A stretch of DNA of 64,000 bases. Origin: Escherichia coli (GTDB taxonomy: Bacteria; Pseudomonadota; Gammaproteobacteria; Enterobacterales; Enterobacteriaceae). Below the pieces are notes generated by a model that saw only the letters and a list, made by a program, of their open reading frames with translations, had not been told where the DNA came from and made no database searches. How positions within the stretch are numbered: the stretch's first letter is position 1; each line of letters opens with the position of its first letter. Below are positions 1,203-38,013 of this stretch, in pieces. Where the stretch lies: NCBI RefSeq assembly GCF_013315695.1, contig NZ_CP054353.1; one strand, written 5' to 3'. The translations under genes were made by a program, and so were the position numbers.

Positions 1203-4200
1203 TTAGTGAACGCGGTTAAAAATAAAAGGCATCACGGTGGTGAATAATGCTGCTTTCGGCCAGGCCGGATTAATCGCCGTCAATTCAGCGCGAGCAGATT
1301 CATAGTGCGCAACCTCCCCGAGTCCCGCGGACGCCAGCATCGCCACCATCAGGCATTTTTCTTTATGCTGCTGTTGTAAATCGCCATACAGCGACAACAG
1401 GTCAGGTTGTGAAACAGCAAAGAAATCCGCCTCAATACTGGTTTTCGCCATCTCTTGCGCCCACTGTTTCATTTCACTAAACAGTTGCTGTGCGGTTTGC
1501 TGTTCACCCAGCAGTCGCAGCGCCATTCCTTGCCAGAAGAGATAATCAACCGGCTGATCGTTGTAATAACTGTGAATGTTAATGGTGCGATCGCCAGTCG
1601 CCGCCAGACGTAAACAACGCATCGCTTCAGTTTCATCACCCTGCGCGTTGGCGCATATCGCCTGCCAGAACCAGATGTCGTTATCAGTTTGCCCCGGTAA
1701 ACGGCCTTCGCTTAAATTCTCCGGATAATGCAGCGCGGCATGAAGCAGTTCGCTGGCCTGCTGCGACTCTCTGGCATCAAGATGCTGCCAGGCGCGTAAT
1801 AACTGGTTGAGGATAAACTGACTGGTGATCTTCCCTTCCCCGCCTTCCCACGGGTGGAATTTGCGCGTGGCGAGAATGTCCGCCGCTTTGTCTGCCTGCC
1901 CCGTGAGATGCCACAAATTGAGCAGTTCTGCGGTCATGTCGTCGCGTTTCAGCGCAATTTCCAGATTATTTTCCAGACGCGCCAGTCGTTTCTCCGGTGT
2001 GGCTCCGCTTAACTTATCCAGCAAATCCCGTTCGAAAAGCAGACGTGCATCCTGCGGCGCAAGCTGATAAGCATTATCAAGATAACGCGCGGCCAGCTCA
2101 TAATCGTGCTGCTTATTCCACGCATGGATCGCTAACCCGCGCCAGCCGTCGGCAAACTCCGGCGACATCTCTACGCAACGTTGCCATAAGGCAATGGCTT
2201 TGCCGTAGCTACGCTTGTTGTAGTAGAAGCAGGCCAATAAATGACGGGCAAACCAGCACTCTTCAATACTCTCCAGCGCCGCCACTTCTTCCAGCGTATT
2301 CGGGAAACGGACAAACTGTGGGAAGACATCAATGGCTTTTGCGACCAGTTCGCCGCGTTTAGCTTTCGGCAATAAACTCGCCTGCAGATAAAGCGGCAGC
2401 GTGCGCTGGCAGTCCAGTGCGTTCAGCATCTCTGCCGCCAGGGCGGGCATGCCCCAGTTAATCAGTTGCCCGGCGGTCATCAGGGCGTTAACGTCTCGTC
2501 CCTGACACAGACCGCGCCACTGCGCGAGGGCTGATTCGCTACGACCATCGAACCAGTTCAGCCACCACAGAGTGGCGTTCAGCGGATAATCGCGCAGCAG
2601 TTTCTCGCGCTGCAAACGCGCGTTGTCCTGACGACCACTTAACACCAGCAGCAGATTATGCAGGCAAAGCACTTCCTGATTGGTTGGGCAGGCGCGAAGA
2701 CTTTGTTGGCAAAAATCCAGACCAGCGTCGAAGTGACCATTACGCGCCGCCAGTCGTGCCAGACCATAATAGCCACCGGCTTTGCTGTTGCCGCTCCAGA
2801 CCGCCCGCCAGAAATCCTCTTCGGCTTGTTGATATTGTCCCTGACGTTCGTAAGCACTGGCGCGAATCAAACTGGCCTGTCCGCACTGCGGATTTTTGTT
2901 CAGCGCATGTGCGCGTTTTAGCGCCTGAGTGGCATACGCCACCGCTTGCGGGAAATCGGCGCGGTTATATTCCAGCATCGCCAGCGCCAGGTTACAGCGA
3001 TAATCCAGCGGATCCAGCGCCACGCCGCGCAGGTAGTAATCGAACGGTGAACGGCTGGCGTGATGATATTGCTCCAGATGCTGACCGATAAACCAGGCTT
3101 CATCTGTACTGGTAATGTCTTGTGCTGACAGTGGCGCTTTGGCGACGTCCGGCAACGGCAACGCTTGCGGCTGATGTTCCTGATAACTCAGTATGATATT
3201 GCCGTCGGCATCGGAGAGCTCAATGGTTAGTCTGTCAGGATTGATACCGTGCAACACGCCCTGGATGGCGGTCGCTGGCATCAGTGCCACGGCATCATCA
3301 AGTAACGCGTTGCATTTGCCGATTTCGCGGATCGCCAGGCGGTATCCGTTCAACGGAGAGATGGCATACAGCCCCCACTCAATCCCCCGCTCGCTACGCT
3401 GGAGTTTTATCACCGCATCGCGGGAGGCATTTTGCACCATGCCCAGAGAATGGTAAGGCAGGAAATACTGCTCGAAACGCTTCTCTTCGTACGCATCAAG
3501 CCAGGTAAAATCAGGCTGGTTATCGGCAAAAATACCGGTCATCAGTTCGATATATGGGCCGTTATTGTCGGTCAGGCTCTTATCCCACGCCTGGCCGAAT
3601 TCACTGTGTCCCCAGCTCCACTGTTTTTTACCTGGCGCGATGTGGTGGTTGGCAACGTGTAGCAAACCGCCATCTTCATCGTGACACCATGCGCCAACAA
3701 AATCGTACTGCGATTTTTCGGCCATATACGAAGTCGGCACTGGCACATTTTTATAGCGAGAGATGTCCACTCCGGCGGAGTAGTCCACTTTGTAGTAAGT
3801 GCCGGTGGCGATGGGGAAAGCGGAGACGGCCCGTTTGCCGTGATCAAACACCGCCGTTACATCCGGCGGGAAGACGCTCTGATGCCCTTCACCCCCTTTC
3901 ACTGCCGGGTTGGCCCACCACAAGAAATGACGCGGCGTGGCGTTGCCGTTATAGACGCGGCTGGCGATTTCCAGCGCCGCCCGGTCAGGGCGCAGGGTGA
4001 AACCTGTCATCACCTGTAAACCATGCATCGGCTCCGTTTCGCCTACCCACACCGTCTGTGCGCCGTCTTCATGGGCTTCGAGGGTGAAATCAACGGGCAT
4101 AAAGGTGGTCGGGCGATGGTGTTGCGGCCAGTTAAACTCAATCCCGCCGGAGATCCACGGTCCCAGCAGCCCCACCAGCGCAGGTTTAATGACTTCATTG

Positions 4201-13350: not shown

Positions 13351-13657
13351 ATAAAGAAAATAGTTTGGTAACGTACTGATTATACGCTGCTTTGAGGGGT
13401 TTATGGCTTCTCCGCTATTTGAATGTAAATCAGCCACTGTGTCGCTAAAAAGAGACAACTTAAGATAATTTTATTAGATAATATTAAAATCAATGAGTTA
13501 AGTGTCGCCAGAAAGCGACATGGCAAACCACCCATTGTCGTGATTTACAGACACAAAAAAGCTCCCGGAGTTGGGAGCTTATGATAGTGGTTGGTGCTTA
13601 ATGCCGGATGCGGCGTGAATGCCTCATCCGGGCTGCAAAACCAATGAGTTTGACGGC

Positions 13658-31439: not shown

Positions 31440-32015
31440 TCAACGCCTGATAAGCGGTTGAACTTTGTTATCAATAGCTTCCCTCGCTCGGAAGATACGT
31501 GAACGCACCGTACCTACCGGACAATCCATGATAGCGGCTATCTCTTCATAGCTCAGGCCATCCAGCTCCCGCAAGGTTATTGCCATGCGTAAATCTTCCG
31601 GGAGGGACTCAATAGTTCGGAAAACTATCTGTCTCAGTTCTTCTGACAACATTAAGTTCTCAGGGTTCGAAATTTCTTTCAACGCGCCGCCACTTTCGAA
31701 GTTTTCAGCTTCAATGGCATCCACATCACTGGAAGGTGGACGACGCCCCTGAGCAACCAGGTAATTTTTCGCTGTATTTACAGCAATCCGATACAGCCAT
31801 GTATAAAAAGCGCTATCTCCCCGGAACGAATCCAGCGCACGATAGGCTTTAATAAAAGCTTCTTGTACCACATCGGGAACATCACCCGACGGCACATAGC
31901 GGGAAACCAGACTCGCCACTTTATGCTGATAGCGCACTACCAGTAAGTTAAAGGCTTTCTGATCTCCCTTCTGGACCCGTTCAACCAGGACCTGGTCCGT
32001 TAACTGCTCGCTCAT
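31440..32015 (-). CDS. rpoE: RNA polymerase sigma-E factor
   Basis: 191 aa from MSEQLTDQVLVERVQKGDQKAFNLLV; ECF sigma regions 2 and 4. Confidence 0.97.
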   Translation of the reverse strand: MSEQLTDQVLVERVQKGDQKAFNLLVVRYQHKVASLVSRYVPSGDVPDVVQEAFIKAYRALDSFRGDSAFYTWLYRIAVNTAKNYLVAQGRRPPSSDVDAIEAENFESGGALKEISNPENLMLSEELRQIVFRTIESLPEDLRMAITLRELDGLSYEEIAAIMDCPVGTVRSRIFRAREAIDNKVQPLIRR

Positions 32016-34898: not shown

Positions 34899-36233
34899 AT
34901 GACTGTAACGACTTTTTCCGAACTTGAACTCGACGAAAGCCTGCTGGAAGCCCTCCAGGATAAAGGTTTCACTCGCCCGACCGCCATTCAGGCTGCCGCC
35001 ATTCCGCCTGCGCTCGATGGCCGTGATGTACTCGGTTCTGCGCCGACAGGCACCGGTAAAACGGCGGCGTATCTGCTGCCAGCGTTGCAGCACCTGCTCG
35101 ATTTCCCACGTAAGAAATCCGGTCCGCCGCGTATTTTGATCCTCACCCCAACTCGCGAGCTGGCGATGCAGGTGGCCGATCATGCCCGCGAACTGGCGAA
35201 ACATACGCATCTGGATATCGCCACCATCACAGGCGGCGTAGCCTATATGAACCACGCGGAAGTGTTCAGCGAAAATCAGGACATCGTGGTCGCCACGACC
35301 GGACGTCTGCTGCAATACATAAAAGAAGAGAACTTCGATTGCCGCGCGGTTGAAACGCTGATCCTCGACGAAGCAGACCGTATGCTGGATATGGGCTTCG
35401 CTCAGGATATCGAACATATTGCTGGCGAAACGCGCTGGCGTAAACAGACCCTGCTCTTTTCGGCAACGCTGGAAGGCGATGCGATTCAGGACTTTGCCGA
35501 GCGTCTGCTGGAAGATCCGGTGGAGGTTTCTGCCAATCCGTCCACCCGTGAGCGCAAAAAAATTCATCAGTGGTATTACCGCGCCGATGACCTGGAACAT
35601 AAAACCGCATTGCTGGTGCACCTGTTAAAACAGCCGGAAGCGACCCGCTCAATTGTGTTTGTGCGTAAGCGTGAGCGTGTGCATGAGCTGGCAAACTGGC
35701 TGCGCGAAGCGGGCATCAACAACTGCTATCTCGAAGGTGAGATGGTACAGGGCAAGCGTAACGAAGCGATCAAGCGTTTGACCGAAGGTCGCGTAAACGT
35801 ACTGGTTGCAACCGATGTTGCCGCGCGCGGTATCGACATTCCTGACGTCAGCCACGTCTTTAACTTCGATATGCCGCGCAGTGGTGATACTTATTTGCAC
35901 CGTATCGGACGTACCGCGCGCGCCGGTCGTAAGGGAACAGCGATTTCGCTGGTTGAAGCTCATGACCATCTGCTGCTGGGCAAAGTAGGCCGCTATATTG
36001 AAGAGCCAATTAAAGCTCGCGTTATTGATGAGTTACGCCCGAAAACGCGTGCGCCAAGCGAAAAGCAGACCGGCAAGCCATCGAAGAAAGTACTGGCTAA
36101 ACGTGCCGAGAAGAAAAAAGCTAAAGAGAAAGAGAAGCCGCGGGTGAAAAAACGCCATCGCGACACCAAAAATATTGGTAAGCGCCGTAAACCAAGCGGA
36201 ACGGGCGTGCCACCGCAAACGACAGAAGAGTGA
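34899..36233 (+). CDS. srmB: ATP-dependent DEAD-box RNA helicase SrmB
   Basis: 444 aa with Walker A (APTGTGKT), DEAD and SAT motifs and a basic C-terminal tail. Confidence 0.95.
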
Positions 36234-36239
36234 TCTTAA

Positions 36240-36440
36240 TTCCGGGTTTAAGCCCGGAATTAAAAGTGCTGGCAAACGCAAAACTGCCTGATGCGCTACG
36301 CTTATCAGGCCTACATGGCTCATGCAATATATTGAATTTGCACGATCTTGTAGGCCGGATAAGGCGTTCACGCCGCATCCGGCATGAACAAAACGCACTT
36401 CGTCGACAAGTTGGGTGCCGGGTTTAAGCCCGGCATTATT
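36240..36440. repeat. REP/BIME-type extragenic palindrome cluster flanked by two identical palindromes
   Basis: REP-like units (GCCTGATGCGCTACGCTTATCAGGCCTAC; GTAGGCCGGATAAGGCGTTCACGCCGCATCCGGCA) bracketed by two copies of CCGGGTTTAAGCCCGG at about 36242 and 36419. Confidence 0.6.
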
Positions 36441-36441
36441 T

Positions 36442-37323
36442 TTATCCCGGCAAAAAACACTCTTCAACACACTGAATAAAAATGTGCATCGCCGGGCTAA
36501 CCGCTTTTCCGGCATGGTGAGCGCACATTGCCGTAATGGTCTGCGACTGTTCGCCAAAAGGCAATTCGATTAATTCGCCACTCGCAAGTTCATTTGCCAC
36601 TGTAAAGCGCGGCAGGTAACTGACCCCGATATTTGCCGCGACACAACGCTTGATGCTTTCGATACTTATAAGCTCAATGGTGTTTTCCACCGTGATCCGT
36701 CGCTGGCGCAGCGTGCTCTCAAATATCTGGCGGAAGACACATTGCGGTTCATTGATAATAAAACTACAGGCGTTATGTCTTCCCTGCTCAGTAAAATCGA
36801 CATCTGCAATTTGCGGTGAAGCCACCAGCACCAGCGATTGTTCACCCAACTCTCGCCGGTTCAGAGCATTATCATTCCCTACGCGATAAAAAACCCCGAC
36901 ATCGGCCTCATCATTCAGTAGCGCATCACGGATCACGTAACAGTTCAGAGACTGCAACGATAAACGCACTTTTGGTGCGCGTTGCCGAAAACGCTGCAAC
37001 ACCTGCGGCATTCGGTAAGAGAGCAACGTTTCGCCTGAAACAACGCGTAGTTCCCCGTCCGGATCCGACTCTTTTTTGGCAGCCTCACGAAGGGTATCCA
37101 TCACTCTGGTGAGTTCATAAATGTGCGGCAGCAGCTTTTTTCCTTCGCGGGTAAGGCACATTCGTCGACCAATTTTCTCAAATAACTGGACTGAGAACTC
37201 CTGCTCAAGCTGCTGAATATGAAAAGTCACCGTCGATTGTGTGCAGCACAATTTTTGCGAAGCTCGCAAGAAGGAACCCTCTTCCACCACGGTTTTAAGC
37301 GTAATAAAACGGCGCAGATCCAT
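36442..37323 (-). CDS. yfiE: LysR-family transcriptional regulator
   Basis: 293 aa from MDLRRFITLKTVVEEGSF; N-terminal LysR HTH. Confidence 0.8.
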   Translation of the reverse strand: MDLRRFITLKTVVEEGSFLRASQKLCCTQSTVTFHIQQLEQEFSVQLFEKIGRRMCLTREGKKLLPHIYELTRVMDTLREAAKKESDPDGELRVVSGETLLSYRMPQVLQRFRQRAPKVRLSLQSLNCYVIRDALLNDEADVGVFYRVGNDNALNRRELGEQSLVLVASPQIADVDFTEQGRHNACSFIINEPQCVFRQIFESTLRQRRITVENTIELISIESIKRCVAANIGVSYLPRFTVANELASGELIELPFGEQSQTITAMCAHHAGKAVSPAMHIFIQCVEECFLPG

Positions 37324-37425
37324 AACCCCAAACCTATCGAAAATATCGAATTTAGAATGTAAAAACATTCATTTTTTTTAATGTTCCGTGTCGGGTACTG
37401 TCTACCAAAACAGAGGAGATAACAA

Positions 37426-38013
37426 GTGACACCGACCCTTTTAAGTGCTTTTTGGACTTACACCCTGATTACCGCCATGACGCCAGGACCGAACAATATT
37501 CTCGCCCTTAGCTCAGCTACAACGCACGGATTTCGTCAGAGTACTCGCGTGCTGGCAGGGATGAGTCTGGGATTTTTAATCGTCATGTTGCTATGCGCGG
37601 GAATTTCGTTTTCACTGGCTGTTATCGACCCGGCAGCAGTGCATCTGTTGAGTTGGGCAGGGGCGGCATATATTGTCTGGCTGGCGTGGAAAATCGCTAC
37701 CAGTCCAACAAAGGAAGATGGGCTTCAGACAAAACCAATCAGTTTTTGGGCCAGCTTTGCTTTGCAGTTTGTGAACGTCAAAATCATTTTGTATGGCATT
37801 ACAGCACTGTCGACGTTTGTCCTGCCGCAAACGCAGGCGCTAAGCTGGATAATTGGCGTCAGCGTTTTGCTGGCGATGATTGGGACGTTTGGCAATGTGT
37901 GCTGGGCGCTGGCGGGGCACCTGTTTCAGCGATTGTTTCGCCAGTATGGTCGCCAGTTAAATATCGTGCTCGCGCTGCTGCTGGTCTATTGCGCGGTACG
38001 CATTTTCTATTAA
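37426..38013 (+). CDS. eamB: cysteine/O-acetylserine exporter (LysE/RhtB family)
   Basis: 195-aa multi-TM ORF with GTG start; LysE-type translocator. Confidence 0.85.
   Translation: MTPTLLSAFWTYTLITAMTPGPNNILALSSATTHGFRQSTRVLAGMSLGFLIVMLLCAGISFSLAVIDPAAVHLLSWAGAAYIVWLAWKIATSPTKEDGLQTKPISFWASFALQFVNVKIILYGITALSTFVLPQTQALSWIIGVSVLLAMIGTFGNVCWALAGHLFQRLFRQYGRQLNIVLALLLVYCAVRIFY

What the first reader, a model, noticed from the sequence alone, without database searches (positions are those of the whole stretch)
36240..36440. REP cluster bracketed by two identical 16-bp palindromes downstream of srmB
Two REP-like units lie between two exact copies of the palindrome CCGGGTTTAAGCCCGG (about 36242 and 36419). 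The arrangement looks like a composite BIME-like element; the outer palindromes may act as terminators for the convergent srmB and yfiE transcripts.
Basis: seen in the sequence. Interest (0 to 1): 0.2.

Follow-up and report, generated by a model that had tools for sequence, protein, structure and literature searches.

The report
BIME-1 repeat flanked by duplicated terminator
The two "palindromes" are two copies of the ordinary transcription-terminator hairpin of the srmB gene, duplicated when a well-known 152-bp E. coli repeat (BIME-1) inserted there; at least eight other copies of this repeat show a matching flanking repeat, which hints at how it spreads.

Summary
CCGGGTTTAAGCCCGG occurs exactly twice, at 36242-36257 and 36418-36433, 176 bp apart.

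Between the copies lies a standard 152-bp BIME-1 (RIP/RIB) element: A motif, Y-REP, L linker with an IHF-like site, Z1-REP, B motif.

The outer palindromes are not part of the repeat family. They are two copies of the local srmB intrinsic-terminator stem-loop.
- E. albertii, Citrobacter and about 45% of E. coli genomes have one stem-loop plus T-run and no BIME. That form is exactly 176 bp shorter.
- About 55% of E. coli genomes have stem-loop, BIME-1, stem-loop.
- One Escherichia sp. genome has a tandem array of three stem-loops and two BIME-1 copies.

Only the right copy keeps the T-run and looks like a terminator, for srmB. The left copy has no U-run on either strand. yfiE has no canonical terminator here.

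The pattern is general. Nine of 23 independent BIME-1 loci carry a locus-specific repeat abutting both element ends, and eight of the nine fold as hairpins. Three further loci have single-hairpin empty sites.

This implies a palindrome-length target duplication on BIME-1 insertion. The literature I could read does not mention it, and key 1990s papers were unavailable.

The element itself is already known, so interest is moderate.

The parts
34899..36233 (+). srmB coding sequence (DEAD-box RNA helicase); stop codon TGA at 36231-36233
   Evidence: ORF of 444 aa. 100% identical to NCBI 'ATP-dependent RNA helicase SrmB'. Annotated as srmB in matching genomes.
36238..36261 (.). Left copy of the duplicated terminator stem-loop (AATTCCGGGTTTAAGCCCGGAATT). 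The palindrome extends to 36236-36263. No T/U-run follows it on either strand.
   Evidence: I2, D2. RNA fold -17.4 kcal/mol with a 12-bp stem. Homologous to the single stem-loop of empty-site strains.
36262..36413 (+). Complete 152-bp BIME-1 (RIP/RIB) element, the inserted DNA
   Evidence: Absent as a block, together with one stem-loop (176 bp in total), in empty-site genomes. 89.9% identical to the consensus of 23 independent BIME-1 loci. Element length is constant at about 153-155 bp across loci.
36262..36285 (+). A motif, the left flank of BIME-1 (AAAAGTGCTGGCAAACGCAAAACT). Together with the B motif it forms a roughly 15-nt terminal inverted repeat.
   Evidence: Aligns to TGAGACTGATGACAAACGCAAAACT, which is shared by other BIME-1 loci.
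36286..36314 (+). Y-type REP / palindromic unit (GCCTGATGCGCTACGCTTATCAGGCCTAC)
   Evidence: Conserved in all BIME-1 loci aligned.
36315..36349 (.). L linker of BIME-1. It contains TGCAATATATTGAATTTGCA (36323-36342) and an IHF-consensus-like site at 36325-36337 on the - strand (ATTCAATATATTG, 12 of 13 matches to WATCAANNNNTTR).
   Evidence: Rfam RF02751 ES036/CssrF scores 48.1 bits, above its gathering score, at 36307-36349 on the - strand. The same family hits the L linker of other BIME-1 loci.
36350..36384 (+). Z1-type REP / palindromic unit (GTAGGCCGGATAAGGCGTTCACGCCGCATCCGGCA), inverted relative to the Y REP
   Evidence: (I1, I3). Partial Rfam naRNA4 (a REP-derived family) match. IS1397 and IS621, both REP-targeting insertion sequences, are found in this BIME in other strains.
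36385..36413 (+). B motif, the right flank of BIME-1 (TGAACAAAACGCACTTCGTCGACAAGTTG)
   Evidence: Aligns to TGAACAAAGCGCACTTTGTCAACAATCTG, which is shared by other BIME-1 loci.
36414..36437 (+). Right copy of the duplicated stem-loop (GGTGCCGGGTTTAAGCCCGGCATT). Together with the T-run it is the predicted intrinsic terminator of srmB.
   Evidence: I12. It is the only terminator-like site found in 35900-36800.
36438..36445 (+). T-run ATTTTTAT following the right stem-loop. It overlaps the yfiE stop codon (36442-36444 on the - strand).
   Evidence: The same run follows the single stem-loop in empty-site strains, E. albertii and Citrobacter.
36442..37368 (-). yfiE (LysR-family regulator) ORF, convergent with srmB. 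The K-12 annotation is 882 bp, so the true start is probably internal to this ORF.

Best explanation
The ancestral srmB-yfiE gap was 32 bp long. It held one intrinsic terminator for srmB: the stem-loop AATGCCGGGTTTAAGCCCGGCATT followed by a T-run that overlaps the yfiE stop codon.

A 152-bp BIME-1 element (A motif, Y-REP, L linker with IHF site, Z1-REP, B motif) inserted at this stem-loop. In doing so it duplicated the whole 24-bp palindrome, giving stem-loop, BIME-1, stem-loop plus T-run. This much is shown.

The consequences are partly shown and partly inferred.
1. srmB transcripts probably read through the left stem-loop, which has no U-run, and through the BIME. They would then stop at the right stem-loop plus U-run, so the BIME-1 becomes part of the srmB 3'UTR. 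There its REP hairpins and IHF site can act as in other BIME-1 copies, in mRNA 3'-end protection or attenuation and in IHF binding. This step is inferred.
2. The two 24-bp direct repeats make the 176-bp unit unstable by repeat-mediated deletion or amplification. This explains copy numbers of 0, 1 and 2 among Escherichia. The copy-number states are shown; the process is inferred.
3. The left stem-loop has been kept paired through compensatory changes: G-C to G.U to A-U in the K-12 lineage, and ATGCC/GGCAT to ATTCC/GGAAT in this window. This suggests selection on RNA structure in the srmB sense. The evidence is weak.

Insertion mechanism (inferred, about 40% confidence). The duplicated segment equals the stem-loop, give or take 1-2 nt, here and at other BIME-1 loci. 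The target was therefore probably cut on the two strands at opposite bases of the extruded hairpin or cruciform. That is a stagger of palindrome length. Gap filling after joining of the element would then produce the duplication. The enzyme is unknown; the REP-associated HUH transposase (RAYT/TnpA-REP) is the obvious candidate.
For: Anatomy.

Empty versus occupied site
- The 701-bp query is covered in full in 2524 genomes. Most of the others match over 524-525 bp, which is 176 bp shorter.
- The occupied-specific left junction is present in 2975 of 5426 genomes.
- Empty-site sequences of CFSAN061768, ST131 and O157:H7 show exactly one stem-loop plus T-run in a 32-bp gap.

Polarity
- E. albertii has a single stem-loop.
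- Three Citrobacter species have a single orthologous stem-loop, ATGCCGGG...CCCGGCAT, plus T-run and a convergent yfiE.

Single origin and instability
- The same A and B flanks are found in K-12, the window, Escherichia sp. MOD1-EC7003 and E1V33.
- E1V33 has three stem-loops at a 176-bp period and two BIME-1 copies.

BIME-1 identity
- The window copy is 89.9% identical to a 23-locus consensus.
- Element length is constant at about 153-155 bp.
- IS1397 and IS621 are inserted in this BIME in other strains.

Generality of the duplication
- Same-locus left-versus-right flank alignments were compared with 506 cross-locus controls (mean 6.3, maximum 14). Five loci exceed every control and nine lie in the top 1.2% or so.
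- In all nine the repeat abuts the element ends within 4 nt. Eight of the nine fold as hairpins of -7 to -16 kcal/mol.
- Single-hairpin empty sites were verified at yqjG-yqjF, ymdF-rutG and metE-ysgA.
- Elements with flanking repeats are closer to the family consensus: 90.7% versus 82.7%, p = 0.004.

Terminator asymmetry.

Compensatory alleles: 1562 genomes carry CCAGG/CCTGG, 1209 carry CCGGG/CCTGG, and none carries the ancestral arm next to the A motif.
Against: - No transcript 3'-end data for srmB or yfiE could be retrieved, so termination at the right copy and read-through of the left copy rest on sequence rules only.
- Fourteen of the 23 BIME-1 loci show no clear flanking repeat. Decay with age fits, but insertion without duplication cannot be excluded. 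The rhlE-ybiA and glpD loci were uninformative.
- The staggered-cut model has no enzymatic support. IS200/IS605-type HUH transposition, the model usually invoked for REP/BIME, makes no target duplication (PMC3333891).
- The compensatory-change argument rests on two or three substitution events.
- In K-12 the right copy has a stem mismatch, so terminator strength may differ between lineages.
Confidence: 0.8

Rival explanations
1. The occupied form, with two stem-loops plus the BIME, is the original state within E. coli. Empty sites are all secondary precise deletions between the two 24-bp direct repeats. On this view the polymorphism reflects recurrent loss, not presence or absence of an insertion.
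For: The same insertion, with identical A and B flanks, occurs in E. coli and in two divergent Escherichia sp. lineages, which suggests it is old. Direct repeats of 24 bp can support RecA-independent deletion (PMC5426353, listed). The tandem array in E1V33 shows that the repeats do recombine.
Against: This concerns only the history within Escherichia. It still requires the original insertion and duplication, because E. albertii and Citrobacter have a single stem-loop. A precise deletion regenerates the ancestral sequence, so ancestral and revertant empty sites cannot be told apart with these data.
Confidence: 0.35
2. One reading: the outer palindromes are integral modules of a composite BIME-like repeat, and they function as a pair of terminators for the convergent srmB and yfiE transcripts.
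For: Both copies form stable stem-loops on both strands. REPs between convergent genes are reported to overlap bidirectional terminators in some cases (Harris 2026 bioRxiv).
Against: The 16-mer occurs nowhere else in the window. Other BIME-1 copies carry different, locus-specific hairpins. Empty sites retain one copy. The left copy lacks a U-run on either strand, and the right copy has one only on the + strand. srmB-yfiE is absent from the list of 306 bidirectional terminators.
Confidence: 0.05
3. The duplication was not made by staggered cleavage. It arose by replication template switching: a nascent strand stalled at the terminator hairpin, switched to copy a BIME-1 elsewhere, then re-annealed upstream of the hairpin and copied it a second time.
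For: Hairpins stall replication and promote slippage (general knowledge). This model equally predicts a duplicated unit equal to the stem-loop that abuts the insert. It needs no enzyme that recognises non-REP hairpins.
Against: It does not explain why the inserted segment always has the same precise 152-bp ends with a terminal inverted repeat. No microhomology between element ends and target flanks is apparent at the four loci with empty sites.
Confidence: 0.2
4. The palindromes are protein-binding operators, for example for the adjacent LysR-type regulator YfiE, and not terminators or insertion scars.
For: This is a dyad-symmetric sequence next to a LysR-family gene.
Against: The site lies at the 3' ends of both genes, not in a promoter region. 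No promoter-like site is nearby. Its architecture of stem-loop plus T-run is conserved in Citrobacter, while the loop sequence differs between Citrobacter and Escherichia. Copy number tracks the presence of the BIME.
Confidence: 0.02

Closest known systems
BIME-1, also called RIP or RIB elements (Gilson 1991; Oppenheim 1993; Boccard and Prentki 1993; summarised in PMC3333891 and PMC1187871)
   Same: One Y and one Z1 palindromic unit in inverted orientation, separated by the conserved L linker carrying an IHF consensus site. Extragenic, at the 3' end of transcription units. About 140-150 bp long and single copy per locus. Present or absent among E. coli isolates. All the sequence features are met here.
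   Different: Nothing differs in the element itself. The flanking duplicated stem-loops are not part of the described BIME-1 architecture in the sources I could read. The tandem array in Escherisia sp. E1V33 departs from the statement that BIME-1 'occur as single copies'.
Rho-independent (intrinsic) transcription terminators
   Same: The ancestral single site and the right copy are G+C-rich stem-loops followed directly by a T-run, immediately after the srmB stop codon.
   Different: The left copy has lost the T-run, which the BIME A motif replaces. On the yfiE strand neither copy is followed by a U-run.
MITEs and classical transposon target-site duplications
   Same: A short non-coding element of constant length, with terminal inverted repeats of about 15 nt and flanking direct repeats of target origin. 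Clean empty sites contain one repeat copy.
   Different: The duplication is 16-26 bp long, varies in length, and coincides with a stem-loop. It is not a fixed 2-14 bp stagger set by a DDE transposase. No cognate transposase with matching inverted repeats is known.
REPINs mobilised by RAYT / TnpA-REP, related to the IS200/IS605 family (PMC3116915, PMC2817692, PMC3333891, PMC8266576)
   Same: A doublet of inverted REPs forming a long hairpin, proposed to be a non-autonomous mobile unit. The dissemination mechanism is stated to be unresolved.
   Different: IS200/IS605-type single-strand transposition makes no target duplication, whereas BIME-1 copies here are flanked by duplicated target stem-loops. 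The association of this copy with RAYT was not tested.
REP-targeting insertion sequences IS1397 (IS3 family) and IS621 (IS110 family)
   Same: Both are found inserted inside this very BIME-1 in other E. coli strains, as expected for genuine REPs.
   Different: They are secondary insertions into the BIME. They are absent from the window and are not related to the outer palindromes.

Membership tests
BIME-1 (RIP/RIB) | One Y-type and one Z1-type palindromic unit in inverted orientation | tested here: met
   Y at 36286-36314 and Z1 at 36350-36384. The arms CTTATCAGGCCTACA and TGTAGGCCGGATAAG are 93% complementary. Both align with 22 other BIME-1 loci.
BIME-1 (RIP/RIB) | Conserved long L linker carrying an IHF consensus site | tested here: met
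   TGCAATATATTGAATTTGCA is an exact match. ATTCAATATATTG on the - strand matches WATCAANNNNTTR at 12 of 13 positions.
BIME-1 (RIP/RIB) | Actual binding of IHF | not testable with these tools
   Sequence match only.
BIME-1 (RIP/RIB) | Conserved outer motifs (A and B) and an overall length of about 140-155 bp | tested here: met
   The projected length is 154 bp, within the 149-164 bp range of the other loci, most of which are 153-155 bp. Identity to the consensus is 89.9%.
BIME-1 (RIP/RIB) | Extragenic position, at the 3' end of a transcription unit | tested here: met
   It lies between the stop codons of the convergent genes srmB and yfiE.
BIME-1 (RIP/RIB) | The outer 16-bp palindromes belong to the repeated family | tested here: not met
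   The palindrome is unique to this locus. Other BIME-1 loci have different flanking hairpins.
Intrinsic terminator | G+C-rich stem-loop immediately followed by a U-run on the transcribed strand | tested here: met
   Met by the right copy on the + strand only. Not met by the left copy on either strand, nor by the right copy on the - strand.
Intrinsic terminator | Transcript 3' ends map at the U-run | not testable with these tools
   Term-seq supplements were either not held or did not mention srmB. The gap is absent from the bidirectional-terminator list.
MITE / transposon with target-site duplication | Terminal inverted repeats | tested here: met
   In the consensus the ends are GAGACTGATGACAAA and TTTGTCAACAATCTG, with about 12 of 15 positions complementary.
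MITE / transposon with target-site duplication | Short target-site duplication of fixed length | tested here: not met
   The repeats are 16-26 bp, vary in length, and coincide with the stem-loop.
REPIN / RAYT system | Inverted REP doublet able to form a long hairpin | tested here: met
   (I1). The centroid fold of the 3'UTR pairs the Y and Z1 regions.
REPIN / RAYT system | Mobilisation by the RAYT transposase without target duplication | tested here: inconclusive
   No enzymatic test was possible. The flanking duplications are not what the IS200/IS605 model predicts.

The most novel reading that the evidence does not exclude
BIME-1 insertion regularly duplicates the complete stem-loop of the resident transcription terminator, producing a structure-defined target duplication of palindrome length (16-26 bp). 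On this reading:
- The element spreads as a discrete 152-bp unit with terminal inverted repeats.
- It enters DNA that is cut at the two bases of an extruded hairpin or cruciform.
- This is a mode different from the duplication-free single-strand transposition usually assumed for REP/RAYT.
- It would also explain why BIME-1 sits in 3'UTRs upstream of a still-functional terminator.
As far as the literature I could read goes, this signature has not been described.
Probability: 0.3. Interest if true: 0.7.

Novelty: already known. Interest (0 to 1): 0.4.

Why it matters
For the window itself the finding is ordinary. It is a known BIME-1 repeat sitting in the srmB 3'UTR. The "bracketing palindromes" are the srmB terminator present twice.

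What matters more is the by-product. How REP/BIME elements disseminate is still described as unresolved in papers from 2012, 2021 and 2026.

A clean footprint is now visible at four loci with empty sites, and statistically at nine of 23 loci. The insert is a constant 152 bp, and the duplication equals the target stem-loop. This gives concrete and testable constraints:
- what the target is (terminator hairpins);
- what the stagger is (the length of the palindrome);
- what the mobile unit is (A motif to B motif, with inverted ends).

It also explains the copy-number instability of 0, 1 or 2 units at such loci. And it explains why these insertions are tolerated: a hairpin plus U-run remains downstream, so termination of the flanking gene is preserved.

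Tried and rejected
1. The key older papers are not held: Bachellier 1997 Genetics, Gilson 1991 NAR, Boccard and Prentki 1993, Clement 1999. I therefore cannot exclude that direct repeats flanking BIME-1 were noted there.
2. Full-text searches for BIME together with target-site duplication, terminator or empty site found no description of the hairpin duplication.
3. Transcript 3'-end data could not be obtained. Supplements for Dar and Sorek 2018 and for the 3'-UTR valves paper are not held, and the TERMITe supplements do not mention srmB or yfiE.
4. I searched E. coli complete genomes for the tandem (two-unit) form using the B-motif/stem-loop/A-motif junction. Only two-piece, 82%-identity matches at other loci came back, so there is no evidence of the tandem form in E. 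coli.
5. The rhlE-ybiA and glpD-downstream BIME-1 loci have a hairpin on one side only. Comparator genomes differ there by larger rearrangements, so no clean empty site was available.
6. The idea that the palindrome is a general repeat was rejected, because it is unique in the window.
7. The idea that it is a YfiE operator was rejected on position and on its conservation as a terminator.
8. The copy of NC_000913.3 held by the tool lists no REP features anywhere, including REP189. The lack of annotation at srmB-yfiE is therefore uninformative.

Full report
**Observation**

The 16-mer CCGGGTTTAAGCCCGG occurs exactly at 36242-36257 and 36418-36433, with a spacing of 176 bp. Allowing two mismatches, shuffles give 0.08 matches on average; four are observed, two sites counted on both strands.

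The 16-mer is an imperfect palindrome with a central T.G. The direct repeat extends to 21 nt at 95% identity.

srmB (+ strand, 444 aa, stop codon TGA at 36231-36233) and yfiE (- strand, stop codon at 36442-36444) converge on this gap. The window matches E. coli strain MS 21-1 at 100% over the 701-bp query.

**What lies between the palindromes**

| Part | Coordinates | Evidence |
|---|---|---|
| Y-type REP, GCCTGATGCGCTACGCTTATCAGGCCTAC | 36286-36314 | |
| L linker, containing TGCAATATATTGAATTTGCA | 36315-36349 | |
| IHF-consensus-like site, 12 of 13 matches, - strand | 36325-36337 | |
| Z1-type REP, inverted relative to Y | 36350-36384 |, I1 and I3 |

This is the Y-L-Z1 architecture of BIME-1, also called RIP or RIB, as summarised in PMC3333891 and PMC1187871.

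I collected other copies by scanning metagenome contigs for the L motif and clustering them by their flanks. This gave 23 independent BIME-1 loci. Alignment shows that the family unit is longer than Y-L-Z1. It includes a left A motif (TGAGACTGATGACAAACGCAAAACT) and a right B motif (TGAACAAAGCGCACTTTGTCAACAATCTGA). The outermost 15 nt or so of these two motifs are inverted repeats of each other.

The projected length (A-motif start to B-motif end) is close to constant: 149-164 bp, with most loci at 153-155 bp. Empty-site comparisons put the inserted segment itself at 152 bp. The window copy spans 36262-36413 and is 89.9% identical to the consensus.

**The outer palindromes are not part of the repeat**

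A 701-bp query across the gap is fully covered in 2524 of 5426 complete E. coli genomes. Most of the others match over only 524-525 bp, which is exactly 176 bp less.

A junction probe specific for the occupied state (srmB 3' end, stem-loop, A motif) is present in 2975 genomes, or 55%.

Empty-site sequences were read from strain CFSAN061768, an ST131 strain and an O157:H7 strain. Each reads: srmB TAA, tctc, AATGCCGGGTTTAAGCCCGGCATT, ATTTTTAT, then the yfiE stop (GTTTTTAT in the ST131 strain). That is one stem-loop plus a T-run in a 32-bp gap.

Loci from other species were obtained with SrmB as the query. They fix the polarity of the change:
- E. albertii has the same single stem-loop.
- Three Citrobacter species have an orthologous single stem-loop, ATGCCGGG...CCCGGCAT, followed by a T-run and a convergent yfiE.
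- Salmonella arizonae and other genera have a single terminator of their own.

The ancestral state is therefore one intrinsic terminator for srmB. The derived state is stem-loop, BIME-1, stem-loop.

The cleanest copy is in Escherichia sp. E1V33. There the duplicated unit is the entire 24-bp palindrome, and the inserted DNA is 152 bp.

That genome carries three stem-loops at a 176-bp period with two BIME-1 copies between them. The direct repeats therefore support amplification as well as, presumably, precise loss. No such tandem form was detected in E. coli complete genomes.

K-12, the window and two divergent Escherichia sp. lineages share the same A and B flanks. All of these copies therefore descend from one insertion event. 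The insertion is either old with recurrent loss, or it has moved between lineages by recombination. The window's insert is closest to the copy in strain MOD1-EC7003 (98.3%), whereas its srmB is closest to K-12 (98.5%).

**Function of the two copies**

Only the right copy is followed by a T-run (GGCAUUAUUUUUAU on the + strand). It is the only terminator-like site the scan finds in 35900-36800.

The left copy folds very stably, at -17.4 kcal/mol with a 12-bp stem. It is followed by AAAAG on the + strand and by AAGAUCAC on the - strand. It is therefore not a canonical terminator in either direction.

On the yfiE strand the right copy is followed by CCCAAC.

I infer that srmB transcripts run through the left stem-loop and the BIME-1 and end after the right stem-loop. 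The BIME-1 would then lie inside the srmB 3'UTR. This is the position reported for RIB elements, and it is where REPs are thought to stabilise or attenuate transcripts.

I could not obtain 3'-end mapping data. The srmB-yfiE gap is not among the 306 bidirectional terminators listed in Table S16 of Harris et al. 2026. That fits the view that the site is not a bidirectional terminator.

The left stem-loop has stayed paired while its sequence changed:
- The ancestral arms CCGGG/CCCGG are seen in E1V33.
- 1209 E. coli genomes have CCGGG/CCTGG, which gives a G.U pair in the srmB-sense RNA.
- 1562 genomes have CCAGG/CCTGG, which gives an A-U pair.
- The window has ATTCC/GGAAT, where MOD1-EC7003 has the mismatched ATGCC/GGAAT.

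This hints at selection on RNA structure, but it rests on only a few substitution events.

**A general signature of BIME-1**

For each of the 23 loci I aligned the 45-50 nt to the left of the element with the 45-50 nt to its right. As controls I used all 506 left/right pairings between different loci (mean score 6.3, maximum 14).
- Five loci beat every control, and nine fall in the top 1.2% or so.
- In all nine the repeat abuts the element ends within 4 nt.
- Eight of the nine repeats fold as hairpins of -7 to -16 kcal/mol.
- The hairpins differ between loci and match within a locus, so they derive from the target.

Three further loci have clean empty sites in E. coli genomes, each with a single terminator hairpin:

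| Locus | Occupied in | Empty site |
|---|---|---|
| yqjG-yqjF | 78 genomes | about 177 bp shorter |
| ymdF-rutG | 1734 genomes | 174 bp shorter |
| metE-ysgA | no E. coli genome | E. coli is about 171 bp shorter than the occupied metagenome contig |

Elements that have flanking repeats are closer to the family consensus: 90.7% against 82.7%, one-sided Mann-Whitney p = 0.004. This is as expected if the repeats are made at insertion and decay afterwards.

**Mechanism**

What is shown: a 152-bp unit is inserted, and the target stem-loop, give or take 1-2 nt, is duplicated.

What I infer (about 40% confidence): the two strands were cut at opposite bases of the extruded hairpin or cruciform, and the gaps were filled after joining. 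The enzyme is unknown.

The RAYT/TnpA-REP model derives from IS200/IS605, which makes no target duplications. Either a different mode of action or a different enzyme is therefore needed. A template-switch model is the main rival. It explains the constant element ends less well.

**Comparison with what is known, and novelty**

The element is an ordinary BIME-1, and BIME-1 presence/absence among isolates is known (Bachellier 1997, as cited in PMC1187871). The specific finding is therefore already known in kind and modest in interest.

The stem-loop-sized target duplication is not mentioned in any source I could read. Reviews and primary papers up to 2026 still call the dissemination mechanism unresolved. 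The 1990s papers most likely to have noted it were not available.

**Side observations**
- IS1397 and IS621 are inserted in this same BIME in other strains.
- The Rfam family RF02751 (ES036/CssrF "sRNA") is simply the BIME-1 L linker. It matches copies at four further unrelated loci.

Noticed in passing
L197:2444-2983 (yqjG-yqjF), L096:2630-3169 (ymdF-rutG), L104:1235-1774 (metE-ysgA); empty sites in L205, L206, L209: At three other loci BIME-1 is likewise flanked by two copies of the local terminator hairpin. E. coli genomes without the BIME have exactly one hairpin and are 171-177 bp shorter.
   Followed up: yes
L008:3844-4219 (Escherichia sp. E1V33, downstream of srmB): A tandem array of three identical 24-bp stem-loops at a 176-bp period, with two BIME-1 copies between them. 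BIME-1 is described in the literature as single copy per locus.
   Followed up: partly
L207:2922-4270 (E. coli PS_131_S11) and L208:415-1395 (E. coli AH01): In these strains the srmB-yfiE BIME-1 carries an IS1397 insertion (IS3 family) or an IS621 insertion (IS110 family). Both insertion sequences are known to target REPs.
   Followed up: partly
window 36307-36349 (- strand); also L104:1479-1519, L008:3909-3951 and 4085-4127, L197:2688-2728, L096:2883-2925: Rfam RF02751 (ES036/CssrF 'sRNA') scores above its gathering threshold on the L linker of BIME-1 at unrelated loci. The family therefore models a dispersed repeat, not a unique sRNA gene.
   Followed up: yes
consensus of 23 loci; window 36262-36276 and 36399-36413: BIME-1 has terminal inverted repeats of about 15 nt (GAGACTGATGACAAA ... 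TTTGTCAACAATCTG). They lie outside the two REPs, giving a MITE-like outline of a constant 152-154 bp.
   Followed up: partly
window 34899-38013 compared with L001, L007, L008: The region is a mosaic. srmB is closest to K-12 (98.5%), but the 176-bp insert is closest to Escherichia sp. MOD1-EC7003 (98.3%, against 95.4% to K-12). yfiE is only 94.4% identical to K-12. This suggests recombination across the region.
   Followed up: partly
window 36231-36241: The srmB stop codon is TGA here and the following bases are CTTAATT. Every other strain examined has TAA followed by CTCAATG or CATAATG. These changes extend the left palindrome to 28 bp (36236-36263).
   Followed up: partly
L106:5375-5914 (rhlE-ybiA): The terminator of rhlE, another DEAD-box helicase gene, is ATGCCGGGCtatGCCCGGCAT, very like the srmB stem-loop. 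A BIME-1 sits directly after it, but no second hairpin copy lies on the far side.
   Followed up: partly
window 13603-13632 and 31445-31459: Weak REP-like matches to the Z-type arm (3 mismatches each), possibly a solitary REP near 13.6 kb. They were not examined.
   Followed up: no
L005 (record titled E. coli strain SCPM-O-B-8794): This genome is labelled E. coli, yet its srmB is only 95.4% identical to the window's and its yfiE 89.9%. That is more distant than the 'Escherichia sp.' E1V33 genome at both genes, so it probably belongs to a cryptic Escherichia lineage. It has the empty site, with a perfect palindrome CCGGGTTTAAACCCGG.
   Followed up: no
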